Source of the DNA: a candidate division WOR-3 bacterium
GTDB taxonomy: Bacteria > Hydrothermota > Hydrothermia > JBDRYB01
Assembly: GCA_039803205.1 (NCBI GenBank)
Contig: JBDRYB010000003.1
Span: forward strand, 4,999 to 68,998
Direction of reading: 5' to 3'
Length of the DNA stretch: 64,000 nucleotides
The notes beneath the pieces were generated by a model, which was given only the letters and a program-made list of their open reading frames with translations, was not told the DNA's origin and did not search any database. This document shows positions 4,968 to 59,586 of the stretch, piece by piece. Positions within the stretch are counted from its first letter, which is position 1; each line of letters starts with the position of its first letter. The position numbers and the translations under genes were made by a program.

Positions 4968-6683
4968 TTGATAACCCTTGGAATTCACGACGGACACACA
5001 GCCACGGTCGCGCTTGTGGTTGATGGGAGGTTGGTCTCTGCGGTCTCAGAGGAACGCCTCAACCGGATCAAGGAGTGGGGAGGATTCCCATACAGGGCAA
5101 TAGAAGAAGTCCTCAGGATAGCGGGTGTTTCCCCGAAAGATGTCAGGTTGGTGGGGATCGCGACCCTTTTCCCACCAATAACATCAGCGGAATACGAAAT
5201 GGCCCACCCTGCGAAGAGGCTTTTTTGGGCGGCGACCAAATTCGTTCCAAGGCCCCTTCTCTACAACGGAGCTTGGCTATCCGGGGCCAGGGTTATATCG
5301 GGCCCCATAATCACCAGGAGGAGGCGCGCGGTGGCTGAGGCCATCTCGGAAACCGGCATATCCGCTCCCCTGCTCTTCTACGAGCACCACACTGCCCACG
5401 GCCTCGGCGCTCACATCCTCTCAGGCATGCCAGAAAGCCTGGTTTTGACCGCTGATGGCTCTGGAGACATGCTCTCCGCGACGGTCTCGGTTGCCAGGGG
5501 AAAAACCCTGAAGAGGCTGTCGGAGATCTCCAACTACAACTCCTTGGGAGAGTTTTACACGAGGATAACCCAATATCTCGGAATGAAGCCCCTTTCCCAC
5601 GAATACAAGGTAATGGGCCTCGCTCCCTACGCGCCCGAGGAAATGGGGAAGGCGGCCTACCAGAGGATAAAAGGCTATTTCGCTGTTCTGCCGGAAAGAT
5701 TGAGCTTCATAAACACCTCAGGCGCCTGGAAAAGGGATTACCTGAAGAGGTTTCGGAATGATCTCGCTGGGATGAGGTTTGACGCTGTCGCTTTCGCGGC
5801 GCAGAAGCTCCTTGAGGATATCGTTGTTTCATGGGTCAGCTCAGCAATAGAAAAGACGAAAATGCGCGCCCTCAGCCTCTCAGGCGGGGTTTTCATGAAT
5901 GTGAAGCTGAACAACCTCATCCTCCAGGCCGATGGCGTTGAAGAGGTCTTCATAATGCCTTCTGCGGGGGACGAAAGCCTCGCTCTGGCTGTCGCTATGA
6001 TGGCGTATCTTGAAACCATGTCTGGGCCACATGAGCCTCTGGGAGACCTCTATCTCGGGCCAGAGTTTGGGGATTCCGATATAGAAAAGGCCCTCTCCGG
6101 CCTGGGCCAAGGATTTACGGTCTCTTACGAGGGCGATGCCATTCACGAGCGCCTTGGAAGGCTACTTGCCCAGGGAAGGATCATGGCGAGGTTCTGGGGA
6201 AGGATGGAGTTCGGGGCAAGAGCCCTTGGTAACCGAAGCATCCTCGCTGATCCGAGGAGGCGCGAGACAGTTGACAGGATAAACAGGGCGATAAAGATGA
6301 GGGATTTCTGGATGCCTTTCGCGCCCACGGTTCTCTATGAGCGGAGGCATGATTACCTCGTAAATCCGAAGGATCATCCTGCCAAATACATGATGGTCGC
6401 ATTTCCAACAACCCCTCTGGCAAAGAGGGACCTTCCGGCGGCACTCCATCCGGCGGACGGAACAGCGAGGCCCCAGATCCTCAGGAAGGAGGATAACCCC
6501 ACATATTACAGGGTGATAAAGGCTTTTGAGGCTGAAACCGGCGTGGGCGCTGTCCTTAACACATCCTTCAACCTACACGGCGACCCTATAGTCTGCACCC
6601 CCCAGGACGCGGTTGATACGCTTCTGAGATCAGACCTTGATGGCCTGGCAATCGGCGGATGGCTGGTCCTCAGGAAGAGATGA
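4968..6683 (+). CDS. Carbamoyltransferase, NodU/CmcH (HypF-like) family
   Basis: N-terminus (M)ITLGIHDGHTATVALVVDGRLVSAVSEERLNRIK plus ...YEHHTAHG... carbamoyltransferase N and C domains; TTG start. Confidence 0.8.
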   Translation: MITLGIHDGHTATVALVVDGRLVSAVSEERLNRIKEWGGFPYRAIEEVLRIAGVSPKDVRLVGIATLFPPITSAEYEMAHPAKRLFWAATKFVPRPLLYNGAWLSGARVISGPIITRRRRAVAEAISETGISAPLLFYEHHTAHGLGAHILSGMPESLVLTADGSGDMLSATVSVARGKTLKRLSEISNYNSLGEFYTRITQYLGMKPLSHEYKVMGLAPYAPEEMGKAAYQRIKGYFAVLPERLSFINTSGAWKRDYLKRFRNDLAGMRFDAVAFAAQKLLEDIVVSWVSSAIEKTKMRALSLSGGVFMNVKLNNLILQADGVEEVFIMPSAGDESLALAVAMMAYLETMSGPHEPLGDLYLGPEFGDSDIEKALSGLGQGFTVSYEGDAIHERLGRLLAQGRIMARFWGRMEFGARALGNRSILADPRRRETVDRINRAIKMRDFWMPFAPTVLYERRHDYLVNPKDHPAKYMMVAFPTTPLAKRDLPAALHPADGTARPQILRKEDNPTYYRVIKAFEAETGVGAVLNTSFNLHGDPIVCTPQDAVDTLLRSDLDGLAIGGWLVLRKR

Positions 6684-6695
6684 ACGAGGATTGAA

Positions 6696-7601
6696 ATGTC
6701 CCCCCGTGAAACAAAGCCTTCACCTCCCAATCCTAATGAGGGGCGAGGAACTAGAAAGCCCCCTTGGCTGAGGGTTCGTTTGCCCGGCAAGGGGGAATTC
6801 TCGGGAACGAGCCGGGTTCTAAGGGAGCTGAGGCTGAACACGGTTTGCCAGGAGGCTCGTTGCCCGAACATATCCGATTGTTGGGGCCGCGGAACCGCTA
6901 CATTCATGATCCTCGGCAAAACATGCACGAGAAGGTGCGGGTTCTGTGCGACCGAAACAGGGAGGCCAAAACCGCCTGATCCGGATGAGCCCGAACGCGT
7001 TGCGGAGGCCGTCAAGAGGATGGGAATAAGGTTTGCTGTCATCACTTCAACCACGAGGGATGACCTTCCTGATGGGGGCGCAGGGCATTTCGCTGAGGTG
7101 ATACGGGCGGTTAAACGCACAGGGGCCATGGTTGAGGTCCTCGTTCCTGATTTCGGAGGAGACGCTGAGGCTATAAAGACCGTTCTCGGAGCTGGGCCGG
7201 ATGTTTTCGCTCACAATACCGAAACAACAAGGAGATTGACCCCTTTGGTAAGGGATGGGCGTGCTGATTACGGGACATCGCTTGAGGTTCTGAGGATAGC
7301 GGCTCAGCACGGGTCTGCCCTCGTGAAATCGGGGTTCATGGTTGGCTTGGGGGAAACTGAGGATGAGATATATGAGACCCTCAGGGACATACGGGAGGCC
7401 GGGGCAGTTGCAATAACCATAGGCCAGTATCTCCAACCAACTATGGCTCACCTCCCTGTTGCCCGGTTCGTTGAACCGGAAAGGTTCGCGCTTTATGCCA
7501 GGTGGGCCAAAGGGCTTGGATACGAGCACATCGCCTCCGGCCCCCTTGTGAGGAGCAGTTATAGGGCGGAGGAGATAGCGCTGGGTTTTCCACGAATCTA
7601 G
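6696..7601 (+). CDS. lipA: Lipoyl synthase
   Basis: CPNISDCW... and CTRRCGFC radical-SAM plus auxiliary cluster motifs; full-length LipA pattern. Confidence 0.9.
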   Translation: MSPRETKPSPPNPNEGRGTRKPPWLRVRLPGKGEFSGTSRVLRELRLNTVCQEARCPNISDCWGRGTATFMILGKTCTRRCGFCATETGRPKPPDPDEPERVAEAVKRMGIRFAVITSTTRDDLPDGGAGHFAEVIRAVKRTGAMVEVLVPDFGGDAEAIKTVLGAGPDVFAHNTETTRRLTPLVRDGRADYGTSLEVLRIAAQHGSALVKSGFMVGLGETEDEIYETLRDIREAGAVAITIGQYLQPTMAHLPVARFVEPERFALYARWAKGLGYEHIASGPLVRSSYRAEEIALGFPRI

Positions 7602-7696
7602 GGTCGCGTTCGCCAACACTGTGCGTCAGGATCGCTCCCTGAGTCTTGAACCCCATAGAACGAACCCTTTACACTGTATTTCTTACGGGAGGAATC

Positions 7697-8392
7697 ATGA
7701 AAAAGCTCGCGTTCATTGTGGGATTGGTCCTTTTCGGTTGTGAGGGCTGGAACATGGGTGGTCCGGACAACCCGCCTGATCCGTATCCCCTGGTCGTCGG
7801 GAACTCATGGCATTACATAGCCATATCCGGGGACATTACTGACTGGTTCATTGACTCCGTCGCGGCAAAAGAGCCGTTTGGTTCTCATCAGAACGCCTAC
7901 AGGATAGTGGAGATAACATCGGGTAAGGGCGCGGCATTCTGGCTACCTGAGAGGATGAGGACAAGGGACATATTTGAGTGGCACGCCTTCTACGATGACG
8001 ATTACCTGGTTTTTGCTCTTGCTGATCCCTACGATACTATGGAAATAAGGCTTTTCAAGAGGGACCCTGATATCGGCGATAGGTGGGCTTCATACAGGGA
8101 GATTACTGTATACGATGAGGACGGGGATATGATAGAGGACACACTGATCTTCAGCCTAATGATGGAAATTGTTTCCTACGAGGATGTGATGACGCCTGCG
8201 GGAGAATTCGCATCATTCAGGAGCCTCAGAAGCGAATGGGATAGCCTGTGGCTTTCGGGAACTGGCGAATGGGAGGTTAATACCTACTATTGGGATTACT
8301 TCTTCTGGGCCCCCGGGGTTGGCATGATCAAGTATTGCGATTATTGGGATGAGAACCAGGGGTATCACCTTGAATCATACAACCTGAGATAA
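7697..8392 (+). CDS. Hypothetical lipoprotein
   Basis: MKKLAFIVGLVLFGCEG lipobox-like signal; acidic, Trp/Tyr-rich body. Confidence 0.4.
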   Translation: MKKLAFIVGLVLFGCEGWNMGGPDNPPDPYPLVVGNSWHYIAISGDITDWFIDSVAAKEPFGSHQNAYRIVEITSGKGAAFWLPERMRTRDIFEWHAFYDDDYLVFALADPYDTMEIRLFKRDPDIGDRWASYREITVYDEDGDMIEDTLIFSLMMEIVSYEDVMTPAGEFASFRSLRSEWDSLWLSGTGEWEVNTYYWDYFFWAPGVGMIKYCDYWDENQGYHLESYNLR

Positions 8393-8496: not shown

Positions 8497-8526
8497 TGGC
8501 AAACGGAAAGAGAGCTCCTTTATAAT
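8497..8526 (+). promoter_or_regulatory. Putative sigma70-type promoter (TGGCAA-18-TATAAT) plus AAGGAGG SD for the zinc-ribbon operon
   Basis: TGGCAA at 8497-8502, TATAAT at 8521-8526, AAGGAGG at 8538-8544, TTG start at 8552. Confidence 0.35.
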
Positions 8527-8551
8527 CTCTCCCGGACAAGGAGGCGATAAT

Positions 8552-9355
8552 TTGGCTGATGAAGCAACTGCCACGAGAAAACTCAGGTGCACCCAGTGTG
8601 GAGCGCCCTTGGATGTTCCCAGGGGCGCGGACCACATAACCTGTCCGTTCTGCGGCTCTGCAATAGAGGTCAAGAGGGAGATATACCAGGGAGAGTTCTG
8701 GGCAAAGCCCGTCTTTGACAAGGCCGCCGCCACCGAGCGTTTCTTCCGGTGGACAGCTGAGAGGGACAAACCAGCGCCCTTCAACGAGAAAGTGGAATTG
8801 AGAAACATCGTCCCGGTCTGGGTCCCAACATGGCACATAAGGGAATGGAAGGCTGGGCCTGGAGGCGCCAGGGAAATAGCCTTCTCAATCCTGCCGGGCT
8901 TTGCTGACAGAAAGACATACGAGGCCCTTTCCCCGCAGAACCTCCCCCTCCAGGCCATAAAACCCTTGGAGGAACCCCTCCCCGGCGAATCAGCACAGCC
9001 GGATATGTCCCCCCAGGACAAGATAACCTTCCTCAAGAGCCGGGGCCAGGATGTTCACGAGCTCAGTCTGGTTTATGTTCCCCTATACCGAGTTGAATAC
9101 TCTTACAAGGGCAAGTCATACAGCCTGCTCATAGAGGGAATGACCGGCGGGGTTCACGCCATAGATTATCCGAAGAAGCCGGGCTGGCCATACTACCTCT
9201 ACACCGTCGCTTTCGGAATATTCTTCTTCTTGCTGTCCTTGCCCTTGTTTTCTGAGGACACGGTGGATCTGGGACTCACCCTCCTGTGTCTGGGATCTGT
9301 TCTGAGCCTGCCCGTATCAGCCCTCATAGCATATTTTCTGGTGAAGAAGGTGTGA
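8552..9355 (+). CDS. Zinc-ribbon membrane protein, paralog 1 of 3
   Basis: N-terminal CxxC-x14-CxxC (CTQCG...CPFCG); conserved YVPxW/LVYVPLYRVEYSYKG core shared with the next ORF; two C-terminal TM helices. Confidence 0.5.
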   Translation: MADEATATRKLRCTQCGAPLDVPRGADHITCPFCGSAIEVKREIYQGEFWAKPVFDKAAATERFFRWTAERDKPAPFNEKVELRNIVPVWVPTWHIREWKAGPGGAREIAFSILPGFADRKTYEALSPQNLPLQAIKPLEEPLPGESAQPDMSPQDKITFLKSRGQDVHELSLVYVPLYRVEYSYKGKSYSLLIEGMTGGVHAIDYPKKPGWPYYLYTVAFGIFFFLLSLPLFSEDTVDLGLTLLCLGSVLSLPVSALIAYFLVKKV

Positions 9356-9356
9356 G

Positions 9357-10298
9357 ATGGCCGAGACAGCAATAACACAAATAAAGGGCCTGAACTGCCC
9401 TAACTGCGGGGATGCTCTTGAGCTTGTGGCTGGTCAGGTTATAGTTGATTGCAAGTCATGCGGAACCCTCTTTAGGGTTGAGGGGCTTCTCGGAACCCCT
9501 CGCTTCCTGGTAAAGAACGCTCTTGATGCGGCGAGGGCTCAGGCTTTAGTCAAGGAATGGCTAAATAGGTGGGGGATCCCCGGTTCCTTCAAGAGAGGCG
9601 TGAAGGTTGAGTCCGCCAGACAGGTCTATGTTCCCATGTGGTTCACTGAGGGCCAGGTCATAGGCTGGCGCCTTGGCTACACCGAATCCACTGATTCCAA
9701 AGGTAATAAAACCAGAACATATCACGAATACAAAGTCAATAGACGGCTCAGGTGGTCAGACCCAGCAACAGGGATAGGGGAGCTATCCGTGACAACCATA
9801 AACCTGGAGGGCCTTCCCCTAAACCACTACTCGGAGGCGGAACGCCCTGAGGGCGAATACCTGGAAATAACCGAAGAGGAAGAGGCCTCGCGGAGAGAAG
9901 CCAAAGAAGGGCTCCTTGCGGCCGCCAGGAGCGGATACCGTTTGGACTATGTCACGGACGAGTTCCTTGAAGTGGTGGATCAGGACTTCTTCCTGGTCTA
10001 TTATCCCTTCTGGCAGGTTACATACTCCTACAAAAACCTGAAGTTCTCAGCGACCGTTGATGGCGCTAGGTCTCAGCTCAGATACGCGAGGGCTCCAAGG
10101 GCAACTGGGTTCCGGATATGGCCTGTTGTGCTAGGCTTGGCCCTTGTTGATCCTCTGATAATGGGCCTCGGAGTCCTCATAACCCAGCTTACCGAGGAGG
10201 GAAAGGTCCTCATAGTTGCTGTGGCACTCCTCTTCGTATTTAACCTTGGGCTAGGGAAAACCATGAAAGGAGGAGGAGAAATTGTCCTCAACAAGTAA
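9357..10298 (+). CDS. Zinc-ribbon membrane protein, paralog 2 of 3
   Basis: NCPNCG...CKSCG zinc ribbon; YVPMWF and LVYYPFWQVTYSYKN motifs homologous to paralog 1; C-terminal TM hairpin; starts 1 nt after paralog 1 stop. Confidence 0.5.
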   Translation: MAETAITQIKGLNCPNCGDALELVAGQVIVDCKSCGTLFRVEGLLGTPRFLVKNALDAARAQALVKEWLNRWGIPGSFKRGVKVESARQVYVPMWFTEGQVIGWRLGYTESTDSKGNKTRTYHEYKVNRRLRWSDPATGIGELSVTTINLEGLPLNHYSEAERPEGEYLEITEEEEASRREAKEGLLAAARSGYRLDYVTDEFLEVVDQDFFLVYYPFWQVTYSYKNLKFSATVDGARSQLRYARAPRATGFRIWPVVLGLALVDPLIMGLGVLITQLTEEGKVLIVAVALLFVFNLGLGKTMKGGGEIVLNK

Positions 10299-10836
10299 AG
10301 AGATAAGGCTTGTGCCGCTCAGATGCCCTGATTGCGATAAGCTCCTTGACAAGAAAGGGGAGCACTTCGCTACATGCAACGCCTGCGGAAAGACATACCA
10401 GGTCACGAGGGCTGGCATCAAGCCAACTCGGATAAGGACTGCAAAGGGCCAGGGCAAAACCCTTAGGCCTTTTTGGGTTTTCAGGTGCGATGTCCAGATA
10501 ACCCACCGGGATGCGAGCGGCAGCGTGGGCAGTTTCTTTGAAAAGCTCCTCGGAGGAGGCTCGGGAAGCGGCGAGATCAGGGTCTTTATTCCGGCCTATC
10601 ATCTTGATTCCGAGGAGATGTTTGAGGTTGCCATGAGAATGACCGAGCGACAACCCAAGTATGAGGCTATGGATATGGGCAACGCAATAGGCATAGTAAT
10701 ACCAGAGGATGAGGCCAAAAGGTATATCGTGCCCGTTGTCATGGGCCTGGAGGTGAGGCGAAAGGACACCCTCCACTCCATACGCTTCAATGTGAAGCTC
10801 AAGGAATCAAGCCTGGATTGGGTCTGGACCGAATAG
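10282..10836 (+). CDS. Zinc-ribbon protein, paralog 3 of 3 (soluble)
   Basis: LRCPDCD...CNACG zinc ribbon; RPFWVFRC and VFIPAYHL segments echo the YVPxW core; overlaps paralog 2 by 17 nt. Confidence 0.45.
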   Translation: MSSTSKEIRLVPLRCPDCDKLLDKKGEHFATCNACGKTYQVTRAGIKPTRIRTAKGQGKTLRPFWVFRCDVQITHRDASGSVGSFFEKLLGGGSGSGEIRVFIPAYHLDSEEMFEVAMRMTERQPKYEAMDMGNAIGIVIPEDEAKRYIVPVVMGLEVRRKDTLHSIRFNVKLKESSLDWVWTE

Positions 10837-10837
10837 G

Positions 10838-12409
10838 GTGAGTCGTCGGTTTGGCTCAGCAGGGGGAGGCCGAGATATGAGATACCTGAAGGAAGCCATT
10901 GGGAAACCAGGGGTTTGGTTCCTCATCTTTCTCGGGCTCTGGGTCGCCGTGAACCTTTATACCCTTATGGGTTTTCCGCCGCAGATAAGCTCTTTTGATG
11001 AGGCCATGAACGCCTCACTCGCTATGGGAATCTGGAAATACGGGGCCATCAAGACCGACATATTTCCCGATTCATACCTCGGCCAATACGGATATGGGGT
11101 CATATCAGCGTGGCTCTACTTTGGAATCCTTGCCGTATTTCTCAAGGTTTTCGGGATAAGCCTCTTCTGGGCAAGGATGGTCTCCCTGCTCTCAGGCGCA
11201 ACGGGGCTTATCCTGGTTTATCTTGCCGGCAGGGAGTTGAAGGACAGCTGGACGGGTTTCCTAGCGAGCGTGTTTCTGGGCACAGAGGCCCTAGTTATGG
11301 ATGTCTCGCACACCGGAAGAACGGATGCCATGATGATCACCATAGTCGCTTTATCACTCCTCTTTTTTATCATGGGGATGAAGCGCCAAAACAACTGGTT
11401 CACAGGGACAGCGGGGTTCATCTCGGTTCTCTCCATTTGGGTTAGGCCGCTCTGCCTGTTTGTTGTTCCAGCATACGCACTTGCCCTATTGGCTATGCTG
11501 AGATGGCGTTCGTTCCTCTGGTTTCTGCTTGGCTGTGCGGTAGGATGCGCTCTCCTCTTTTTCACGAATTACCTTCCCAATATCGGCTATCCCCTTCTCG
11601 GCGATCTGGATGTCGCAAACCAGTATTCTCCAGCTCTTCTTTTGATCCGCGGAAGGTTTTCCGATCTGTGGACTAACCTCTGCTCCAACATCCTCGGGGT
11701 CTTCAGCTTCTTCAAGACCGTCTCGGTTAGATACACCATATTCAAGCTCTCGGTGATCCTTGGCTTCTTAAGTATCCTCATAAACAGAAGGGATGCTAAG
11801 CCCTTTTACGCGCTAGTCATAACGGCAACCCTCGGCGCGTTTTTGATTTGGCCGAGGATGAACTGGCTCTATTTTCCCTCCATAATGCCCTTTTTCGTTC
11901 TCGGCGGGGTTCTGGGCCTGGGGAGATGGAGGCTCGCCAGGATGCTCCTTTTGGCCCTCCTGATGGTTCTCGGTTCCTGGTATCCTTTCGTGCTGAATCA
12001 CAGGTATCGCGATGGAGAGGAGTATTTCGCTAAGGTATTGGATAGGATATCCAGCAGGGTCCCGGCCGGGTCAGTGGTCTTGGGGGATGGTTCTTGGCTT
12101 TGGTGGAACCTGGAGAGAAAGGGCTCAAGGCTCGTCATACCCGTGAGCGAGGATTTTCATAAGGGGAAAGAGAACCTCATGGGTTTCTGCTCAAAATACG
12201 GGGTGGACTACATATACCTCACTTACAGCTCTGATACCTGCGTTCTATTTTACATAGTGCTTACCCCGTATTCCTACTCTCGCCGATTGTTGTCCGAGGA
12301 GGAGAAGGGGTTCATAAATGGACTTGAGGTGGTGGATGTTATACACCTGAAAAAGGGGTTCGGCGGCATGCGTTTTGACAGCCTTGTCCTATACAGAGTG
12401 AATAAATGA
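10838..12409 (+). CDS. GT-C fold glycosyltransferase, PMT_2/ArnT-like (GT39/GT83 family), copy 1
   Basis: More than 10 TM helices; first-loop DE motif SFDEAMNASLAMGIWKYG resembling ArnT/PMT; GTG start directly after the zinc-ribbon gene stop. Confidence 0.6.
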   Translation: MSRRFGSAGGGRDMRYLKEAIGKPGVWFLIFLGLWVAVNLYTLMGFPPQISSFDEAMNASLAMGIWKYGAIKTDIFPDSYLGQYGYGVISAWLYFGILAVFLKVFGISLFWARMVSLLSGATGLILVYLAGRELKDSWTGFLASVFLGTEALVMDVSHTGRTDAMMITIVALSLLFFIMGMKRQNNWFTGTAGFISVLSIWVRPLCLFVVPAYALALLAMLRWRSFLWFLLGCAVGCALLFFTNYLPNIGYPLLGDLDVANQYSPALLLIRGRFSDLWTNLCSNILGVFSFFKTVSVRYTIFKLSVILGFLSILINRRDAKPFYALVITATLGAFLIWPRMNWLYFPSIMPFFVLGGVLGLGRWRLARMLLLALLMVLGSWYPFVLNHRYRDGEEYFAKVLDRISSRVPAGSVVLGDGSWLWWNLERKGSRLVIPVSEDFHKGKENLMGFCSKYGVDYIYLTYSSDTCVLFYIVLTPYSYSRRLLSEEEKGFINGLEVVDVIHLKKGFGGMRFDSLVLYRVNK

Positions 12410-13914
12410 GGGTTCCGAGGGGCCTATTTCGCAAACCGGGTTTCTGGTTTGTCGTTTATATCGTGTTCTGGCTCACGGCAAACCTCATAACGCTTACATG
12501 GTTCCCTGGATGGGACTTGAACCAGGATGAAGCCCTTCACGCCTCATGCGCTTGGGGGATCTGGGAATACGGCGCTGTTAGGTCAGGGTTCCTCCCAGGC
12601 TCATACCTCGGCCAATACGGCTACGGCATGCTATCTAGCTGGATCTACTATGGGATCCTCGCTCTCTTTTTGAAGATTTTCGGGATAGGCATCTTCTGGG
12701 CAAGGCTTCCCTCCCTCCTATCAGGGGCGGCAATCCTACTCTGCACTTACCAGATGGGCAAGGAATTCGGTTCCCCGGCATCAGGGCTTCTGGCGTCCGT
12801 TTTCACGGGCTTTGAGGTATTTTTCCTTAGGGCATCCCATTATACCCGCTCGGATGCCATGCTCGCGGCATGGATATGCGTCTCCGTCCTTCTCTTCCTG
12901 GTGGCCATGAGGCGAAAGGCCTGGTGGATTTTCGCGACCCTGGGCTTCGTATCTGGGATATCGGTTCTGGTAAGACCCTTGGGCATATTTCTGGTCCCGG
13001 GCCTCGCAATGCTCATGATCCTCTCGAGAAGATGGGCCGGCCTCGCTTGGTTCAGTTTGGGCGCGGCTTTGGCTGGTTTCATCATGTTCTTCACAAATTT
13101 CTTGCCCTTCAGGGATTATCCCATCCTCTCTGATATAGATGAGCCAAACCGCTCCTCCCCGATCTTCCTTCTCCTCACCCGCCAATTCCACCTCATACCC
13201 ATCGTGATTGAGTCTAAGACACGGTTTCTCCTTCTGATATTCTTAGGATGGCATGAACCCATTTCAAGGTTCCTCATTCTTCGCGTGACCCTCCTCGCCG
13301 CGACCCTGGGCGCTATGTTAAGGTTCCGGGACTATCCTCTTCTCTACGGTATCCCTCTAGCCCTCACGCTGAGCGCTATATTCTGCTGGCCCTTGCTCCG
13401 CGGCGGGTATCTGATATTCCTCGTTCCCTTGCTTGCTTTGGGGTTCTTCGTGGCGTTTCAAAGGGTCTCGTGGATAAGGTGGGGAATGCTGATATTCGGG
13501 GTCGTGGTGGGGTCTGTGGCCGCTTACAGGAGCACCGAGGAGTGCCGCGCGAACGCGCCCATTCGCAGGCTTGAGAGCATGGTTTTCCGCGAGATTCCCC
13601 CTGGTAAGACCCTCATGATCAATTGGTTCTGGTTCTGGTGGCCCCTTCACCACAGGAATCGGCTTGTCGCTATGGTGGATCAGGATTTCACATGGGGAGA
13701 TCTGAGCTTCGCGGATCTGGTAAAACGCCATGCCCCTGATTACATAGCAGTGGTCTTCTGGAAGGATTTCCTGATATGGCCGAGGCAGATGAACCATGGG
13801 GATACCCTCTATATTTCAGGGTTGGAAAAGATGGCGGGGTTTTACTTTCAGGGCGAGAACAGGTGGAGAGGGTTTGATAGCCTAATAATATACAAGGTTC
13901 CTGATGGTCTTTGA
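12406..13914 (+). CDS. GT-C fold glycosyltransferase, PMT_2/ArnT-like, copy 2 (tandem paralog)
   Basis: NQDEALHASCAWGIWEYG motif; YLGQYGYG and FGIxxFWAR blocks are identical to copy 1; 4-nt overlap with copy 1. Confidence 0.6.
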   Translation: MRVPRGLFRKPGFWFVVYIVFWLTANLITLTWFPGWDLNQDEALHASCAWGIWEYGAVRSGFLPGSYLGQYGYGMLSSWIYYGILALFLKIFGIGIFWARLPSLLSGAAILLCTYQMGKEFGSPASGLLASVFTGFEVFFLRASHYTRSDAMLAAWICVSVLLFLVAMRRKAWWIFATLGFVSGISVLVRPLGIFLVPGLAMLMILSRRWAGLAWFSLGAALAGFIMFFTNFLPFRDYPILSDIDEPNRSSPIFLLLTRQFHLIPIVIESKTRFLLLIFLGWHEPISRFLILRVTLLAATLGAMLRFRDYPLLYGIPLALTLSAIFCWPLLRGGYLIFLVPLLALGFFVAFQRVSWIRWGMLIFGVVVGSVAAYRSTEECRANAPIRRLESMVFREIPPGKTLMINWFWFWWPLHHRNRLVAMVDQDFTWGDLSFADLVKRHAPDYIAVVFWKDFLIWPRQMNHGDTLYISGLEKMAGFYFQGENRWRGFDSLIIYKVPDGL

Positions 13915-15823
13915 GAACCCGGAGGATTACAGAAAGCACTTCTCCAGACTCATAATGCTCGAGCGCTCGGAGGAAATGCGCGCCATGAGGGAGGAGATAC
14001 TCCGGCTATCTGGCGAGGAAAGGCAGGCTACCGGAAGGTGCGTGCTTGACATGAGCCTGTCAGACAAGGGGCCGTGGCTCGGGGGCAGAAGGCTGGTCTA
14101 CTTGTTCCGAGCGGACATGCCTGAGACCGAAATAGGGCCATCTGACATGGTCATGGTTTCTCGGGGCCGCCCGCTCACGGAGGGGATAGCCGGCGTGATC
14201 CTAAAGCGCACGGGAAACGGTTTCGTGGTTGTTCTGGATAGCCCAATATCCTGGAGTAAGGTAAGGGTTGACCTCCTCTCAAACGACATCACATACGAGA
14301 GGATGCTTTTTGCCCTGAAGAACATGGAGGGAGGGCTCTTCCCTTTGGGGTTCATCTTGGGCAAATCTGAGCCGCTCATCCAAAAGGAGGCCATCCGTAT
14401 TCCGGATCACCTCAATCCTTCCCAAGCAAAAGCCCTAATGCTTGCGATGGGATCAAGGCCCATCTTTCTGATCCACGGCCCTTTTGGCACGGGAAAGACC
14501 CTCACCCTCGTTGAAATAATAGCAAAAGCGCTTGAGAGGGGGGAGAGGGTTCTGGCTTGCGGGGACTCAAATGTTGCAACGGACAACCTCTTGGAAGGCC
14601 TGGTCAAAAAGGGCCTAGAACCTCTGAGAATAGGCCATCCCGCAAAGGTATCTCCCCACCTGGTTTCGCACAGCCTTGACGCGATGGTTGAGGCACATCC
14701 GGAATTTGGAAAGTGCCGAAAGCTCTGGGAGGCCATAGAGGAGCTCAAAGCAGAGCAGTCAAGGTATCCGAGGCCAGACCCAGGGTCCCGGCGTGGCTAC
14801 ACCTACCGTGAGATAGAGCGCCTTGCCAAGCATCACAAATCCGGACGCGGAATACCCAGGGAGAGAATAAAGGGAATGGCAGAATGGGTCCTGATCGAGA
14901 AGAAAATAACCGAACTTAGGCAGGAGGCTACCGAGAGGGAGGGCAGGATAATCAACGAGATAATCTCATCCGCCAGGGTGATATGCTCAACCTGCTCTGG
15001 CGCTGGCTCTGAGTTTCTTGAGGGGGAGGATTTTGACCTCCTGGTCCTTGACGAGGCAACCCAGGCAACTGAGCCATCGGCTCTCGTGCCCCTCGTAAAA
15101 GCAAGGAGGGCTGTTCTCGCCGGGGATCACAGGCAGTTGCCTCCGACAGTCATATCCAGGGAGGCTGAGCTGGGCGGCCTTGGCCTCAGTTTTTTCGAGA
15201 GGATGATAGAACTGCATCCGGAGGCTTCCACCCTCCTTGACATCCAATACAGAATGCATCCGGACATAATGGAATTCCCGGCGAAGGCCTTCTACGCCGG
15301 TAAGCTGAGATCCGCAAAAGGGCTTGAGAAAATGAGATTATCCGATCTCCTGGCCATCCCGGCAAGAAACCCGGTTCTCGGAGATAGACCTGTTTTTTTC
15401 GTGGACACCGGAGGAACCCACAGGGAAAGAAGGAGGAAGGGTTCCCCGTCAAGGGAGAACCCGGGCGAGGCCGAGATCGTCAAGGGACTGGTGAAGGAGC
15501 TGCTGGCCCTTGGCCTTGATCCCTCGGAGGTCGGGGTGATAGCGCCCTATGAGGACCAGGTGAAGCTTCTGAGAGGTCTCCTGCCCGATGGGGTTGAGGT
15601 AAAGACGGTTGATGGGTTCCAGGGAAGGGAGAAGGAGGTTATAATACTCTCTCTCGTCAGGTCAAACCCCAAGGGCAAGATAGGGTTTCTCAAGGACAGA
15701 CGCCGCCTGAATGTGGCGATAACCCGCGCGAGGAGGAAGCTCATAGTAATAGGGGACGCGGGGACCCTGGCGAGGGATAAGGTCTACAGGGATTTCGTGG
15801 GGTGGGCGAGGAGGATTAGCTAG
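13904..15823 (+). CDS. SF1 helicase, Upf1/DNA2/NAM7-like (AAA_11/AAA_12)
   Basis: Walker A GPFGTGKT, DEATQ box (LVLDEATQATE), motif V/VI DGFQGREKEVIILSLVRSN, and an N-terminal beta-barrel-like region. Confidence 0.8.
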   Translation: MVFENPEDYRKHFSRLIMLERSEEMRAMREEILRLSGEERQATGRCVLDMSLSDKGPWLGGRRLVYLFRADMPETEIGPSDMVMVSRGRPLTEGIAGVILKRTGNGFVVVLDSPISWSKVRVDLLSNDITYERMLFALKNMEGGLFPLGFILGKSEPLIQKEAIRIPDHLNPSQAKALMLAMGSRPIFLIHGPFGTGKTLTLVEIIAKALERGERVLACGDSNVATDNLLEGLVKKGLEPLRIGHPAKVSPHLVSHSLDAMVEAHPEFGKCRKLWEAIEELKAEQSRYPRPDPGSRRGYTYREIERLAKHHKSGRGIPRERIKGMAEWVLIEKKITELRQEATEREGRIINEIISSARVICSTCSGAGSEFLEGEDFDLLVLDEATQATEPSALVPLVKARRAVLAGDHRQLPPTVISREAELGGLGLSFFERMIELHPEASTLLDIQYRMHPDIMEFPAKAFYAGKLRSAKGLEKMRLSDLLAIPARNPVLGDRPVFFVDTGGTHRERRRKGSPSRENPGEAEIVKGLVKELLALGLDPSEVGVIAPYEDQVKLLRGLLPDGVEVKTVDGFQGREKEVIILSLVRSNPKGKIGFLKDRRRLNVAITRARRKLIVIGDAGTLARDKVYRDFVGWARRIS

Positions 15824-15874: not shown

Positions 15875-16864
15875 CTATTCCACGAAAACCCTAAAAGCCT
15901 GATCCGGTGTATCGCAATATCCGACCTCTTTGGGGTTTGCGGGATCGGAAATATCTATGATTCTCAAGCCGCTATACGTGGCCGCAACATACGCGTAGTT
16001 CCCTGAAACGAAGACGCCGTAGGGTTTGTCCGGAGTCTGGCAATGCCCGACTTCTTTGGGGTTAGTGGGGTCAGATACATCTATCACCCGAAGCGTGGAA
16101 TCCAAAGTGGTCACATAAGCGTAATTCCCAGAGACGAAAACACCCGCAGCGTTGGTAATGGGACATAAGCCAGCAAATGAGGGATTTGTGGGATCGTGAA
16201 TGTCTATTATTACCAGTCCATCATCGCGAGCGGCCAAATAAAGATAGCTCCCTGAGGCATAGACGCCCAGAATATTCCATCCTGACATACAACCATCTGT
16301 AATCACTTGAGGGGATGTTGGGTTAGAGATGTCCACGATAGCGAAGCCGTAATCGAATTCGGTAATGTAAGCGTAGTTTCCTGATACGAAAATTTCCCAA
16401 GCATAAGCAAAATCGCAACTCGCTACCTTTTGAGGAGATGATGGGTTGGATATATCTATGACCCTCATATTGTACCGGTAGGCGCTATCGTATGTCAATA
16501 CATACGCGTAGTTCCCGGAGACGAAGAGGCTGTTGGGATAGTCTATCGCACTACAACAGCCAACCTTTTCTGGAGATGAGGGGTTGGAGATGTCTATTAC
16601 TGCGAGGCCGTTGGGATAATCAGCTATATAGGCGTATTTCCCGGATACGAAAACATCATTGACGGTGTCCTCTGGAGTATTGTAAGAGCCAACCTCTTTA
16701 GGAGCTGAGGGATCAGAGATATCTATGACGCGGAGCCCGGCGTCTACATCTGCCACATATGCATATGGACCTTCACCATGCTCTTCTTTTGCGCAGTTCA
16801 CGAGACCCGCCATAGGGATAAGGGTTATCCCTATGAACAACTTTGTGAGCCCTTTCCTCATCAT
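15875..16864 (-). CDS. LVIVD-repeat beta-propeller lipoprotein
   Basis: Seven repeats of (L/F)(R/A)V(I)D(I)S(D/N)P(S/T)xP; signal peptide with Cys (LVNCAKEE); GGAGG SD. Confidence 0.7.
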   Translation of the reverse strand: MMRKGLTKLFIGITLIPMAGLVNCAKEEHGEGPYAYVADVDAGLRVIDISDPSAPKEVGSYNTPEDTVNDVFVSGKYAYIADYPNGLAVIDISNPSSPEKVGCCSAIDYPNSLFVSGNYAYVLTYDSAYRYNMRVIDISNPSSPQKVASCDFAYAWEIFVSGNYAYITEFDYGFAIVDISNPTSPQVITDGCMSGWNILGVYASGSYLYLAARDDGLVIIDIHDPTNPSFAGLCPITNAAGVFVSGNYAYVTTLDSTLRVIDVSDPTNPKEVGHCQTPDKPYGVFVSGNYAYVAATYSGLRIIDISDPANPKEVGYCDTPDQAFRVFVE

Positions 16865-17284: not shown

Positions 17285-18901
17285 ATGAATGGGACAAAGA
17301 TAGGTGTGGCCTTTGTCCTTTCGGTGGGTTTTGCCTGGGCTGGGTTTGTGGCTCAGTACCTTTCTGAAATGGACCAGGCCACCAGAGAGAATGCTGTGAT
17401 AATCTTGGACTGGGCAGGAGCCCACACAGATGAGATGCTTCACGCTGAGTATCTCTGGAACACTGGGAGATACGATGAGGCTATATCCGCGATAGAAGCG
17501 CTGGAGCTTGAGTATGGGGATATGTGTATCGGAGTATCCTGGCGAAAACCAATAGAAACAGAAGGCCCAAAGTGGGGAACGGATGTTAGGGTTACTCCTA
17601 TCCCAAATAATGTCGTCGATATAGAGCTGGTTAAGGCCGCTGGCAACAACAACCTCTTTATAGCTGCCAGAGGCGACACAGCTGGACTTTACCAGTGGTG
17701 GTTGTATATCTCCACGAATGGAGGAGCGAGCTGGGCTATGGCGGATTCCTGGGCTAGCACTGCGCCATTTACAGATGTAGACATAGCGGAACTTGGGGAT
17801 GGTTATATATACCTGGCCTATTCCAACATGCGCGTTGAGCCTAAAGTGGTAAAAATGGTGAGGTTCAATGAGACAACAGGGGCATTCGATAATTCGTATG
17901 ATTTTTTTGATGCGGCTTTCGCGAACGACACCATATCTGAGATAAAACTGGAGCCATATCGGGGTTCTGTTCAGCAGTTATATCTCCTCTTTCTTGACAA
18001 AAGCCATAATCTTTACTATTTCTGGGGCACTAACGGAGGAACAACCTGGTATGATGCCAGCCCAGGAGTTACGGATGCAAGGAGCGGAATTGACATGGAT
18101 TTTGGTTCCATGAGCGGTTCTCAACACTACCTATGGATAAGCTGGATAAACACATCTGGATACCTTCGGGCTGCTGGTAGAGTATCTGGTTCCTGGAAGT
18201 TTTACACCCCTATCTATTCCGTGAATGTAGCTTTTGGCACCAAAATAGCACAGCACGGGGATACTGTGATAATTCTAGATTCAGACATATATGCGGGCTA
18301 CCTTGAATACTTTATAACCTTTGATGACGGAAACACCTGGGGGTATGGGATCATATACGATTCTACTCAAGCTGGTGCCTTTGATGTAACCGGACGAGGA
18401 AACCAAGGCTGGCATGTTTCGTTCTGCAATTACAACCAATCGGGCAACAGTATCATGAAATACAGAAAGAGGCCCTATTCCGGAAACTGGGGTAATGTAG
18501 TGAGCTTTGGAGACAGGAACGCGTTCTTCAGCTACCACAGCTCAATTGATTACATCGGAGCAGGTGCTTATGGTGTTGCCTACATAGACTATCTTCGTAT
18601 TGTCTGGTTCGATAGATCCGATTGGACGGATATCGCCGAATCCTCGTTTAGGCCTCTGCCCATGGATTTCAGAGCCATTCCAGGAGCGGGAAGGACAACG
18701 CTTTCATTTGTTCTACCGGAGGCCGGCTTCGCAAGCTTGAAGATATATGATGCTCGCGGCGCGCTTGTGAACGATCTATCGGGAAACTATGCGGCTGGAC
18801 CAAATAGGGTTGAGTTCGTGCCTGACAAAAGCGGAAGCTACTTCGTTTTGCTCTCAACTGGAAAGGAGAGCGTGAGAGCGGGTTTTGTGGTGGTGAAATA
18901 G
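17285..18901 (+). CDS. Secreted BNR/Asp-box repeat protein with T9SS-type C-terminal sorting domain
   Basis: Signal peptide; Asp-box-like STNGGASW, TNGGTTW and FDDGNTW; C-terminal ...SYFVLLSTGKESVRAGFVVVK tail; GGAGG SD. Confidence 0.55.
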   Translation: MNGTKIGVAFVLSVGFAWAGFVAQYLSEMDQATRENAVIILDWAGAHTDEMLHAEYLWNTGRYDEAISAIEALELEYGDMCIGVSWRKPIETEGPKWGTDVRVTPIPNNVVDIELVKAAGNNNLFIAARGDTAGLYQWWLYISTNGGASWAMADSWASTAPFTDVDIAELGDGYIYLAYSNMRVEPKVVKMVRFNETTGAFDNSYDFFDAAFANDTISEIKLEPYRGSVQQLYLLFLDKSHNLYYFWGTNGGTTWYDASPGVTDARSGIDMDFGSMSGSQHYLWISWINTSGYLRAAGRVSGSWKFYTPIYSVNVAFGTKIAQHGDTVIILDSDIYAGYLEYFITFDDGNTWGYGIIYDSTQAGAFDVTGRGNQGWHVSFCNYNQSGNSIMKYRKRPYSGNWGNVVSFGDRNAFFSYHSSIDYIGAGAYGVAYIDYLRIVWFDRSDWTDIAESSFRPLPMDFRAIPGAGRTTLSFVLPEAGFASLKIYDARGALVNDLSGNYAAGPNRVEFVPDKSGSYFVLLSTGKESVRAGFVVVK

Positions 18902-54822: not shown

Positions 54823-54874
54823 GATTCTCTACACCAGACCAAGAGGCGAGTAGCTTCCGGGATATGCTTTACAA

Positions 54875-56164: not shown

Positions 56165-56356
56165 CTTAAAAACCTCCTCGTTTAAGGTTTTTGTTTTCAA
56201 GGGAAACACGGGCTGACCGGAGGTCGTTCTGAAGAACGAGCCGTTCCGGCCGATACCCCTGTATTTTCTCGCACAGGGTCGCGGCAAACACGATCATTCC
56301 CAGCATAATCCCAGTATGAATTATCACGAATGGGTTTGCGAGCCTTTCCCTTATAT

Positions 56357-57883: not shown

Positions 57884-57924
57884 GTTAAAGCCTCCGTATG
57901 GTTTTTGTTTTCAAAGCAAATGCA

Positions 57925-57970
57925 GGCCGGCCGGGTTTTAACGGGAGGTGCAGAGATCCCCGGCCGGCCC
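57925..57970 (-). terminator. Conserved intergenic GC hairpin (ggccggccggg / cccggccggcc) flanked by T/A-rich tracts, followed by GGAGG SD of next gene
   Basis: Same element at 59533-59579 and 61155-61200; lies between the stop of the upstream gene and the start of the downstream gene. Confidence 0.45.
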
Positions 57971-57977
57971 TTTGTTT

Positions 57978-59492: not shown

Positions 59493-59532
59493 GATGAAAC
59501 CTCCGTATGGTTTTTGTTTTCAAGGCAAATGT

Positions 59533-59579
59533 GGGCCGGCCGGGTTTTAACGGGAGGTGCAGAGATTCCCGACCGGCCC
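59533..59579 (-). terminator. Conserved intergenic GC hairpin element (copy 2)
   Basis: gggccggccggg ... cccgaccggccc, with one mismatch relative to the other copies. Confidence 0.45.
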
Positions 59580-59586
59580 TTGGTTT

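What the first reader, a model, noticed from the sequence alone, without database searches (positions are those of the whole stretch)
8552..15823. Six-gene operon: zinc-ribbon trio + two tandem GT-C (PMT_2/ArnT-like) glycosyltransferases + Upf1/DNA2-like SF1 helicase
All six genes are co-oriented. Junctions overlap or are 1-2 nt apart (9355/9357, 10298/10282, 10836/10838, 12409/12406, 13914/13904). One promoter-like element with a strong SD lies upstream at 8497-8544. A nucleic-acid helicase coupled to membrane glycosyltransferases and a zinc-ribbon membrane trio is not a combination I recognise from described pathways. Possible readings are a cell-envelope glycosylation machine with an unusual regulatory or helicase partner, or a defence-like module in which the helicase is the effector.
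Basis: partly seen in the sequence, partly recalled or inferred. Interest (0 to 1): 0.7.

Follow-up and report, generated by a model that had tools for sequence, protein, structure and literature searches.

The report
YdjG-like zinc-ribbon trio, lineage-specific operon
The six genes do form a tight operon in one WOR-3/Hydrothermia lineage. Only the three zinc-ribbon genes are an ancient, widespread cassette, which usually partners a stomatin-like SPFH membrane-scaffold protein; the glycosyltransferases and the helicase are local additions, and the helicase is an ordinary housekeeping type.

Summary
In detail: six co-oriented ORFs at 8552-15823 with overlaps or tiny gaps. One correction: the first GT-C gene most likely starts at ATG 10877, not GTG 10838.

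The parts have different histories.
- **Zinc-ribbon trio.** The three proteins are paralogues. They belong to a large family with no Pfam model and no solved structural relative (2,698 cluster representatives). All three occur in the same A-B-C order in 72 of 80 genome loci from Ignavibacteria, Methanoperedens, Thermococci, Chloroflexi and others. None of the 80 has a helicase or GT-C within 10 kb.
- **Usual neighbour.** An SPFH/Band_7_1 gene (YdjI-like) lies upstream in 63 of 80 loci. The family includes YdjG-like proteins that sit next to SPFH and TPM genes in Enterococcus.
- **Helicase.** It is a full-length IGHMBP2-family SF1B helicase. Its nearest out-of-clade orthologues end a 2-oxoacid dehydrogenase operon instead.
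- **Within the clade.** The trio is followed by two, one or no GT-C genes and then the helicase, with varying flanks.

Best reading: a YdjG-like membrane-anchor module fused into an operon with lineage-specific envelope glycosyltransferases and a passenger helicase. A defence role is not supported. A true functional link to the helicase is not excluded.

The parts
8521..8544 (+). Possible -10 box (TATAAT, 8521-8526) and Shine-Dalgarno (GGAGG, 8540-8544) ahead of the first gene
   Evidence: Read directly from the sequence. The SD is 7 nt from TTG 8552. The site was not called by the sigma-70 consensus scan, and promoter-like sites in the region are at chance level. Weak evidence only.
8552..9355 (+). 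ZnR-A: N-terminal CxxC...CxxC zinc ribbon, beta-rich cytoplasmic domain and C-terminal hydrophobic hairpin (about aa 214-265). YdjG-like superfamily.
   Evidence: ORF. Zn_ribbon_FGT1_2 at 7e-7. Paralogue of ZnR-B: BLASTP 3e-12 over the full length and hhalign probability 99.8. Hydrophobic segments. An orthologue lies upstream of ZnR-B in nearly all 80 distant loci.
9357..10298 (+). ZnR-B: zinc ribbon, two helix-plus-long-beta-hairpin modules and a two-helix TM hairpin (aa 250-298). YdjG-like superfamily.
10282..10836 (+). ZnR-C: soluble, truncated paralogue (zinc ribbon plus the first 'PFW' hairpin region and a C-terminal domain, no TM segment)
   Evidence: ORF with GAGGAGGAG 4 nt upstream of the TTG. 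hhalign against the ZnR-A family gives probability 97 over the ribbon plus PFW region. No hydrophobic segment. It follows ZnR-B in 73 of 80 distant loci.
10877..12409 (+). GT-C glycosyltransferase 1 (PMT_2; GT39/GT83-like), multi-pass membrane protein. The ORF could extend to GTG 10838.
   Evidence: PMT_2 at 1.2e-10, 42.2 bits against a cutoff of 26.1. Many hydrophobic segments. The D-E pair in the first loop is invariant in the family alignment. Start revised. Absent from some in-clade relatives, which carry one GT-C or none.
12406..13914 (+). GT-C glycosyltransferase 2, paralogue of the first (35% identity). This is the copy retained in single-GT-C relatives.
   Evidence: PMT_2 at 7.5e-12. 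BLASTP 4e-97 to GT-C 1. Orthologues at 58-73% identity in L005, L011, L014, L098 and L100. Public names given to homologues are 'glycosyltransferase family 39 protein' and 'ArnT family glycosyltransferase'.
13904..15823 (+). IGHMBP2-family (Upf1-like, SF1B) helicase. It overlaps the preceding gene by 11 nt.
   Evidence: NCBIfam TIGR00376 at 622.6 bits against a cutoff of 348.9, covering aa 19-637 of 639. AAA_11 plus AAA_12 and a weak 1B-domain hit. The best solved relative is human IGHMBP2, 4b3f, E 2e-91. Motifs I-VI are intact in the translation.

Best explanation
The locus is a lineage-specific operon fusion built around an ancient three-gene module.

**The module (shown and inferred).**
- Shown: ZnR-A, ZnR-B and ZnR-C are three paralogues of one family.
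- That family also contains the YdjG-type zinc-ribbon membrane proteins of Firmicutes.
- Predicted: ZnR-A and ZnR-B are anchored by a C-terminal TM hairpin. Their zinc ribbon and beta-rich domain should face the cytoplasm, since there is no signal peptide and the TM segments come last. ZnR-C is soluble.
- Inferred: the three form a hetero-oligomeric platform on the inner face of the membrane. In most lineages that platform would dock an SPFH/Band_7_1 scaffold protein (YdjI-like) and a small coiled-coil protein. This follows B. subtilis, where YdjG and YdjH recruit YdjI and PspA and where losing them disturbs cell-wall synthesis under stress.

**The additions in this clade.**
- No SPFH gene lies next to the trio in this WOR-3/Hydrothermia clade.
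- Downstream are one or two clade-specific GT-C enzymes. By family knowledge these use polyprenyl-phosphate sugar donors and act on the outer face of the membrane.
- Last is a housekeeping IGHMBP2-type 5'-3' helicase.

**Most likely working.**
- The trio and the GT-C enzymes both serve envelope and membrane maintenance (inferred).
- All six genes are read from one promoter (inferred from overlaps and ribosome-binding sites).
- The helicase is a co-transcribed passenger, placed at the 3' end of an operon as it is elsewhere.
For: **The trio is the conserved unit.**
- All three genes in A-B-C order in 72 of 80 loci from at least six phyla of bacteria and archaea.
- 2,698 family representatives at E<=1e-3.

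**The three are paralogues.**

**SPFH partner.**
- A Band_7_1 plus zinc-ribbon gene lies directly upstream in 63 of 80 loci, and a 176-aa coiled-coil gene in 33 of 80.

**YdjG link.**
- An Enterococcus SPFH / YdjG-like / TPM cluster and a Comamonas SPFH / 'TFIIB-type zinc ribbon' pair.
- HMM matches extend beyond the ribbon: 2.3e-22 for the family HMM, and 2.8e-14 with the WOR-3-only profile.
- The published domain description of YdjG and its role in anchoring YdjI and PspA (PMC11237479, PMC8581546).

**Helicase and GT-C are additions.**
- 0 of 80 distant loci have either gene.
- The sister-clade locus L096 has the trio followed by an epimerase and a DUF1573 protein.
- GT-C copy number is 2 (window, L005, L100), 1 (L011-14, L098) or 0 (L009).
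- Helicase orthologues at 57-58% identity end an E1-beta/E1-alpha/E2-like operon with a 1-nt overlap. The Aquificota orthologue sits among housekeeping genes.

**The helicase is ordinary IGHMBP2 family.**

**Operon structure.** Overlaps, Shine-Dalgarno sequences and no terminator-like site at the junctions.
Against: - Inside the clade the helicase follows the trio in every contig that reaches that far. These have at least five different flank arrangements. It does so even where no GT-C lies between them (L009). That is more persistent than pure chance adjacency would predict.
- All clade members are close relatives (ZnR-B at least 73% identical), so shared ancestry alone may explain it.
- No SPFH or c2 homologue is present in the 64-kb window or in the clade contigs. 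The usual partner may therefore be missing from these genomes, and the trio's role here may differ.
- B. subtilis YdjG itself could not be compared. Only YdjG-like proteins from Enterococcus and metagenomes were.
- Complex formation, topology and co-transcription are inferred, not shown.
- Only the best 80 of 354 genome loci were examined.
Confidence: 0.6

Rival explanations
1. This is a genuine functional system in this clade. The YdjG-like trio has exchanged its SPFH partner for the IGHMBP2-type helicase and tethers it to the membrane, for example to act on RNA or DNA at the membrane. The GT-C enzymes are an optional third component.
For: - The helicase directly follows the trio or the GT-C genes, with start/stop overlaps, in all informative clade contigs despite rearranged flanks.
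- In L009 it overlaps the end of ZnR-C with no GT-C between them.
- No SPFH gene was found nearby.
- The trio's cytoplasmic domains are the kind of surface that recruits soluble partners in B. subtilis.
Against: - The linkage is confined to one shallow clade.
- 0 of 80 distant trio loci have a helicase.
- The nearest outgroup helicases are likewise overlapped onto an unrelated metabolic operon. Overlap is therefore this gene's habit, not a sign of partnership.
- The helicase has no extra domain relative to the family model.
Confidence: 0.15
2. The block is an anti-phage defence module in which the Upf1-like helicase is the sensor or effector.
For: The helicase core resembles MkoA of Mokosh (8.8e-94), and also PLuB, ProA and Hhe helicase regions.
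Against: - The matches cover only the shared SF1 core: aa 167-625 against positions 613-1082 of a 1,112-position MkoA profile.
- The protein instead passes the IGHMBP2 equivalog full length.
- No nuclease, PLD or other effector is present.
- The other five proteins have no PADLOC hit.
- The neighbours are housekeeping genes: lipoyl synthase, a carbamoyltransferase and an LVIVD protein.
- Helicase orthologues are found in many archaea and bacteria, with hits from complete genomes of Thermococcus, Thermotoga and others.
Confidence: 0.04
3. The block is an envelope glycosylation machine. The trio is a dedicated cytoplasmic regulator or assembly factor for the GT-C enzymes, and the helicase is irrelevant.
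For: - GT-C genes sit immediately after the trio in most clade members.
- Polysaccharide-related genes follow the trio in some other lineages: an epimerase in L096, and a methyltransferase plus a Wzx-like flippase in 9-11 Ignavibacteria loci.
- ydjG/ydjH mutants in B. subtilis mislocalise cell-wall synthesis.
Against: - GT-C is absent from L009 and from all 80 distant loci.
- The downstream neighbours in other phyla are not conserved.
- The consistent partner is SPFH, not a glycosyltransferase.
Confidence: 0.2

Closest known systems
B. subtilis PspA-YdjG-YdjH-YdjI membrane-stress module (YdjG = zinc-ribbon TM protein; YdjI = SPFH/Band-7 protein with a C-terminal zinc finger)
   Same: - ZnR-A and ZnR-B share YdjG's plan: N-terminal zinc ribbon(s), a beta-rich domain and a C-terminal TM segment.
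- They are detectably homologous to YdjG-like proteins.
- In other phyla the trio sits beside a Band_7_1 protein with the same SPFH, low-complexity, zinc-ribbon layout as YdjI.
- Enterococcus has the SPFH / YdjG-like / TPM arrangement.
   Different: - Here there are three paralogues, two membrane-bound and one soluble, each with a single ribbon. YdjG is one protein with two ribbons.
- ZnR-A and ZnR-B have a two-helix hairpin rather than one TM helix.
- There is no PspA, no TPM (YdjH) gene and, in this window, no SPFH gene.
- The small coiled-coil partner c2 is not PspA-like by sequence.
- B. subtilis YdjG itself was not available for comparison.
IGHMBP2 / SMUBP-2 family of Upf1-like SF1B helicases (NCBIfam TIGR00376)
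   Same: - Full-length match above the curated cutoff.
- Same AAA_11 / AAA_12 core with a 1B insertion.
- The best solved relative is human IGHMBP2.
- Hundreds of prokaryotic orthologues at 41-48% identity.
   Different: - It lacks the R3H and zinc-finger tail of the eukaryotic protein (639 aa, helicase region only).
- The function of the prokaryotic family is unknown.
- The operon position behind a membrane module is specific to this clade.
GT-C glycosyltransferases of the PMT_2 type (ArnT/GT83, PMT/GT39)
   Same: - PMT_2 domain above the gathering score.
- Multi-pass membrane protein.
- Invariant Asp-Glu in the first loop after TM1.
- Public annotation of homologues as GT39 or ArnT family.
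   Different: - No NCBIfam equivalog matches.
- No sequence-detectable solved structure.
- The subfamily is small and confined to this lineage: 12 hits, 11 of them at 41% identity or more and one weak partial hit at 29%.
- Donor and acceptor are unknown.
Mokosh (MkoA) and other helicase-based defence systems
   Same: Shares the Upf1-like SF1 helicase core.
   Different: - It has no N-terminal MkoA region and no PLD nuclease partner.
- It passes a housekeeping-family equivalog instead.
- The other five genes are unknown to PADLOC.

Membership tests
IGHMBP2-family SF1B helicase (TIGR00376) | Full-length match to the family model above its curated cutoff | tested here: met
   622.6 bits against a cutoff of 348.9; aa 19-637 of 639 match profile positions 2-629 of 639.
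IGHMBP2-family SF1B helicase (TIGR00376) | Upf1-like core (AAA_11 + AAA_12) with a 1B barrel inserted before domain 1A, and intact motifs I-VI | tested here: met
   AAA_11 at 2.6e-58 and AAA_12 at 3.4e-61. SMUBP-2_HCS1_1B is weak at 0.0026 in the window protein and 1.3e-7 in the L009 orthologue. GPFGTGKT, DEATQ, GDHRQLPP, QYRMH and VAITRAR are visible in the translation.
IGHMBP2-family SF1B helicase (TIGR00376) | ATP-dependent 5'-3' unwinding of RNA or DNA | not testable with these tools
   Needs biochemistry.
GT-C glycosyltransferase, PMT_2 type (GT39/GT83) | PMT_2 domain above the Pfam gathering score in a multi-pass membrane protein | tested here: met
   42.2 and 46.2 bits against 26.1. About 9-12 hydrophobic segments by a crude Kyte-Doolittle scan.
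GT-C glycosyltransferase, PMT_2 type (GT39/GT83) | Conserved acidic catalytic motif in the first extracytoplasmic loop | tested here: met
   D41 and E42 (GT-C 2 numbering) are invariant across 11 family members, both window copies included. That this motif is catalytic is from general knowledge of GT-C enzymes.
GT-C glycosyltransferase, PMT_2 type (GT39/GT83) | Membership of a specific characterised subfamily (ArnT, PMT, etc.) | tested here: not met
   No NCBIfam model matches. No solved-structure sequence relative for the single protein or the profile.
YdjG-like zinc-ribbon membrane proteins | N-terminal CxxC...CxxC zinc ribbon(s) followed by a homologous beta-rich domain and C-terminal TM segment(s) | tested here: met
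   The four Cys and the PFW / YYPxW..Y.Y..DG motifs are conserved. The ZnR-B family HMM matches the Enterococcus YdjG-like protein at 2.3e-22 over HMM 13-230. The WOR-3-only profile gives 2.8e-14. TM hairpin.
YdjG-like zinc-ribbon membrane proteins | Direct homology to B. subtilis YdjG itself | not tested
   The YdjG sequence is not in any collection I could reach. The only link is that its primer-derived N-terminus, MIISYKCPNC, resembles that of family member P0121, MIRIYKCPSC.
YdjG-like zinc-ribbon membrane proteins | Operon partnership with an SPFH/Band-7 (YdjI-like) protein | tested here: not met
   Met in 63 of 80 distant loci and in Enterococcus and Comamonas. No SPFH or c2 homologue is present in the window or the clade contigs.
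PSP (PspA) envelope-stress system | A PspA/IM30 gene in the operon | tested here: not met
   None of the ten proteins scanned in and next to the block has a PspA domain. The coiled-coil c2 of other lineages does not match PspA, Vipp1 or ESCRT-III structures by profile.
Mokosh / helicase-based defence systems | Full-length MkoA architecture plus a PLD nuclease (MkoB/MkoC) or another effector | tested here: not met
   Only the helicase core aligns (profile positions 613-1082 of 1112). There is no effector gene, and the other five proteins have no PADLOC hit.

The most novel reading that the evidence does not exclude
In this WOR-3/Hydrothermia clade the ancient YdjG-like membrane platform has been rewired. 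Instead of docking an SPFH scaffold, it recruits an IGHMBP2-type RNA/DNA helicase to the inner face of the membrane, next to GT-C envelope enzymes. That would be a prokaryotic case of membrane-tethered Upf1-like helicase activity.

Separately, and more probably, the ZnR-A/B/C plus SPFH plus coiled-coil cassette is an undescribed membrane module shared by bacteria and archaea, with no Pfam family and no solved fold relative.
Probability: 0.12. Interest if true: 0.7.

Novelty: new variant of a known kind. Interest (0 to 1): 0.4.

Why it matters
**The helicase association.** It should not be read as a new pathway or defence system without experiments.

**The trio.**
- It marks a very large family (2,698 representatives at 50% clustering) with no Pfam model and no solved structural relative.
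- Public sources label members only by the ribbon, as 'RpoP' or 'L37AE'.
- It forms a fixed three-paralogue cassette next to SPFH proteins in both bacteria and archaea.
- It extends the B. subtilis YdjG/YdjI paradigm well beyond Firmicutes.
- It offers a concrete candidate for how soluble SPFH scaffolds are anchored to membranes in many prokaryotes.

**The prokaryotic IGHMBP2 helicases.** Their function is unknown. A clade in which one is locked behind a membrane module is a cheap place to look for a clue.

Tried and rejected
- **AF2 of ZnR-B with only close homologues.** The model was unusable (pLDDT 41). It was redone with 64 diverse sequences.
- **Genome scans with the broad alignments A3 and A4.** A narrower alignment, A5, worked. 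Its top 80 loci are dominated by Ignavibacteria.
- **PspA test.** The coiled-coil gene c2 was tested as a possible PspA/ESCRT-III homologue. A profile search of the PDB found only generic coiled coils. NCBIfam gives a sub-threshold match to the uncharacterised LIMLP_15305 family.
- **Defence reading.** Tested with PADLOC and rejected.
- **Cluster-member look-ups.** These gave only ribbon-based misnomers and no YdjG name.
- **Rfam.** No RNA family was found in the whole window.
- **Literature.** Searches for Band_7_1/COG4260 and for prokaryotic IGHMBP2 found no description of this cassette.
- **GT-C.** Sequence and profile searches of the PDB found nothing.

Full report
**1. Observation**

The six ORFs exist as described, all on the + strand:
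- ZnR-A 8552-9355
- ZnR-B 9357-10298
- ZnR-C 10282-10836
- GT-C 1 10838-12409
- GT-C 2 12406-13914
- helicase 13904-15823

The junctions are overlaps or gaps of 1-2 nt, with one probable exception. GT-C 1 most likely starts at ATG 10877:
- GGGGGAGG lies 7 nt upstream.
- The paralogue GT-C 2 aligns from that methionine.
- The public gene call is 510 aa.

This leaves a 40-nt spacer with no terminator-like hairpin.

Other start signals:
- TTG 8552 is preceded by GGAGG at 8540-8544, and a TATAAT lies at 8521-8526.
- TTG 10282 is preceded by GAGGAGGAG.
- The consensus promoter scan finds nothing above chance in the region, 8 sites against 7.5 expected. The promoter is therefore plausible but unproven.

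Base composition is even across the block, and no Rfam family occurs in the window.

**2. What the proteins are**

*Helicase.*
- It is a full-length member of the IGHMBP2 family: NCBIfam TIGR00376, 622.6 bits against a cutoff of 348.9, aa 19-637 of 639.
- It has AAA_11 and AAA_12 domains and a weak 1B-domain hit.
- Its closest solved relative is human IGHMBP2/SMUBP-2, E 2e-91, followed by Upf1, DNA2 and Sen1.
- There is no extra N-terminal domain.

*GT-C proteins.*
- Both pass PMT_2 and are 35% identical paralogues.
- Both are multi-pass membrane proteins.
- Both keep an invariant Asp-Glu after TM1.
- They match no NCBIfam equivalog and no solved structure by sequence.
- Their subfamily is tiny and confined to this lineage: 12 hits, 11 of them at 41% identity or more and one weak partial hit at 29%.

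*Source organism.* The source is a metagenome. Public names attached to near-identical or closely related homologues are candidate division WOR-3 and Candidatus Hydrothermia.

*Zinc-ribbon proteins.* These are the interesting part.
- ZnR-A and ZnR-B are full-length paralogues: BLASTP 3e-12 and hhalign probability 99.8.
- ZnR-C is a shorter, soluble paralogue that shares the ribbon and the first 'PFW' hairpin region: probability 97.
- A profile of ZnR-A and ZnR-B found 2,698 cluster representatives at E<=1e-3 among 1.84 billion proteins, 371 of them at E<=1e-10.
- None of 64 diverse members matches any Pfam family beyond generic zinc ribbons.
- Public names for members are ribbon-driven misnomers such as 'RpoP' and 'L37AE'.

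With the diverse alignment, AlphaFold2 gave a confident model of ZnR-B, pLDDT 91.2 and pTM 0.79. The model shows:
- a zinc ribbon;
- two modules, each a helix plus very long beta-hairpins;
- a C-terminal two-helix TM hairpin.

**3. Synteny from the trio's point of view**

A scan of one genome per GTDB species found 354 loci, and the best 80 were fetched. They come from Ignavibacteria/Chlorobiota, Bacteroidota, Acidobacteriota, Anaerolineae/Chloroflexia, Vulcanimicrobiota, Methanoperedens/ANME-2 and Thermococci.
- Searching all their ORFs with the six window proteins shows ZnR-A, ZnR-B and ZnR-C in that order in 72 of 80 loci. Most of the exceptions run into a contig end or have ambiguous ORF calls.
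- There is not one helicase or GT-C hit within 10 kb in any of the 80.

Clustering the neighbours shows two further conserved genes just upstream:
- c1 occurs in 63 of 80 loci. It is an SPFH Band_7_1 protein (1.9e-41) with a low-complexity linker and C-terminal zinc ribbons. This is the architecture described for B. subtilis YdjI.
- c2 occurs in 33 of 80 loci. It is a 176-aa coiled-coil protein with only a sub-threshold match to the uncharacterised LIMLP_15305 family, and no resemblance to PspA or ESCRT-III structures.

The c2-c1-A-B-C arrangement occurs in both Ignavibacteria and euryarchaea. In Chloroflexi, Vulcanimicrobiota and the WOR-3 clade the trio stands without them.

**4. Link to the known YdjG/YdjI system**
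- In B. subtilis the pspA-ydjGHI operon encodes YdjG and YdjH, two membrane proteins that recruit the soluble SPFH protein YdjI and PspA to the membrane. Their loss deregulates cell-wall synthesis under alkaline stress (PMC8581546).
- YdjG is described as two zinc ribbons followed by a YpeB-related domain and a TM segment (PMC11237479).
- The family found here contains two-ribbon members of just that layout, P0121 and P0152.
- A tblastn search with P0121 found an Enterococcus gallinarum locus annotated SPFH protein / hypothetical / TPM-domain protein. It also found a Comamonas locus annotated SPFH protein / 'TFIIB-type zinc ribbon-containing protein'.
- The ZnR-B family HMM matches the Enterococcus protein at 2.3e-22 over the ribbon and most of the beta-rich domain. 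A profile built only from the WOR-3 clade still gives 2.8e-14.
- The adjacent SPFH proteins match the c1 HMM at 8.5e-29 and 5.8e-79.

ZnR-A and ZnR-B therefore belong to the same superfamily as YdjG-like proteins, and SPFH partnership is a superfamily-wide trait. B. subtilis YdjG itself could not be retrieved for a direct test.

**5. Synteny inside the clade, and from the helicase's point of view**

Relatives with ZnR-B 73-89% identical and helicase 72-76% identical keep the block but vary it:
- trio, two GT-C genes and helicase in the window, L005 and L100;
- trio, one GT-C and helicase in L011-L014 and L098;
- trio followed directly by the helicase, overlapping the end of ZnR-C, in L009.

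The flanks differ in at least five ways.

Outside the clade the picture changes:
- The nearest outgroup trio (L096, 32% identical) is followed by an epimerase and a DUF1573 protein, not a helicase.
- The helicase's next-closest orthologues (57-58% identical) come from organisms with similar LVIVD and C25 genes. They lie at the 3' end of an E1-beta/E1-alpha/E2-like operon with a 1-nt overlap and no trio or GT-C nearby.
- An Aquificota orthologue (47% identical) sits among housekeeping genes.
- Orthologues at 41-48% identity are common across Thermococcus, haloarchaea, Thermoplasmata, DPANN, Thermotoga and Balneolaceae.

The helicase is thus a widely distributed, housekeeping-type gene that tends to be packed onto the end of whatever operon precedes it.

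**6. Interpretation**

The most economical account is an operon fusion in one lineage.
- An ancient YdjG-like, cytoplasm-facing membrane platform is followed by clade-specific envelope GT-C enzymes. The GT-C gene was duplicated in some members and is absent in one.
- A passenger IGHMBP2 helicase comes last.
- The trio and the GT-C enzymes may both concern envelope upkeep. This fits the B. subtilis cell-wall phenotype and the polysaccharide genes that follow the trio in some other lineages. That link is inferred.

The defence reading fails:
- Only the shared SF1 core matches MkoA.
- There is no effector gene.
- Five of the six proteins are unknown to PADLOC.

I cannot exclude that in this clade the trio recruits the helicase. 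The adjacency survives flank rearrangements and the absence of GT-C, and no SPFH gene is nearby. I give that about 0.12-0.15.

**7. Novelty and score**

- The six-gene combination is real but shallow in evolutionary terms, and two of its three component types are ordinary.
- The trio is a new three-paralogue variant of a known kind, the YdjG-type anchors of SPFH proteins.
- It belongs to a very large, unannotated family with no solved structural relative and a fixed operon across bacteria and archaea. That is worth a specialist's attention, but it is not a new category.
- Overall interest is 0.4.

**Limits**
- Only the best 80 of 354 genome loci were inspected, and they are biased towards Ignavibacteria.
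- The clade sample consists of close relatives.
- ORFs in the loci were called by a simple longest-ORF rule.
- Co-transcription, topology and complex formation are inferred.

Noticed in passing
L019, L022, L029, L038, L041, L056-L058, L084 and others (upstream of the trio); e.g. L058:7502-8032 and L058:8033-9214: A five-gene cassette is shared by Ignavibacteria and by Methanoperedens and Thermococci archaea: a coiled-coil protein (c2, sub-threshold LIMLP_15305-like), an SPFH Band_7_1 protein with C-terminal zinc ribbons, then ZnR-A, ZnR-B and ZnR-C. I found no description of it in the literature searched.
   Followed up: partly
window 10838-10879: The longest-ORF start of GT-C 1 (GTG 10838) is probably wrong. 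ATG 10877 has a strong Shine-Dalgarno sequence and matches the paralogue's N-terminus and the public gene call (510 aa).
   Followed up: yes
window 15875-16864 (-) and 17285-18901 (+): Convergent with the helicase is a seven-repeat LVIVD beta-propeller protein (5e-85). Beyond it lies a 538-aa protein with no Pfam match. A larger LVIVD protein also lies a few genes upstream of the helicase orthologue in L102 and L103.
   Followed up: no
L102:1-2602 and L104:3197-5886: Two tandem BrxC/BrxD-family (PF10923) ATPase genes lie 3-5 genes upstream of the out-of-clade helicase orthologues, on the opposite strand in L102 and the same strand in L104. This may be a defence-type element near the helicase in that lineage. 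It is not present in the window.
   Followed up: no
window 53284-61113: Four paralogous genes of about 505-512 aa (53284-54822 on the + strand; 56357-57883, 57978-59492 and 59587-61113 on the - strand) each carry weak DUF5122 beta-propeller repeats. A 707-aa ORF with no match lies next to them at 61208-63331.
   Followed up: no
L029:11710-14005 and 9-11 other Ignavibacteria loci: Directly downstream of the trio in a subset of Ignavibacteria are a Methyltransf_23 gene and a MatE/Polysacc_synt (Wzx-like flippase) gene. This is a second case of envelope-polysaccharide genes following the trio.
   Followed up: partly
L088:10001-11590: In one Chloroflexia locus the ZnR-B ORF is 530 aa and no separate ZnR-C was detected. 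This may be a B-C fusion or an ORF-calling artefact.
   Followed up: no
window 4968-7601: Upstream of the block lie a carbamoyltransferase (Carbam_trans_N/C), a lipoyl synthase-like radical SAM protein and an unannotated 248-aa protein (7646-8392). None of these is conserved next to the block in relatives.
   Followed up: partly
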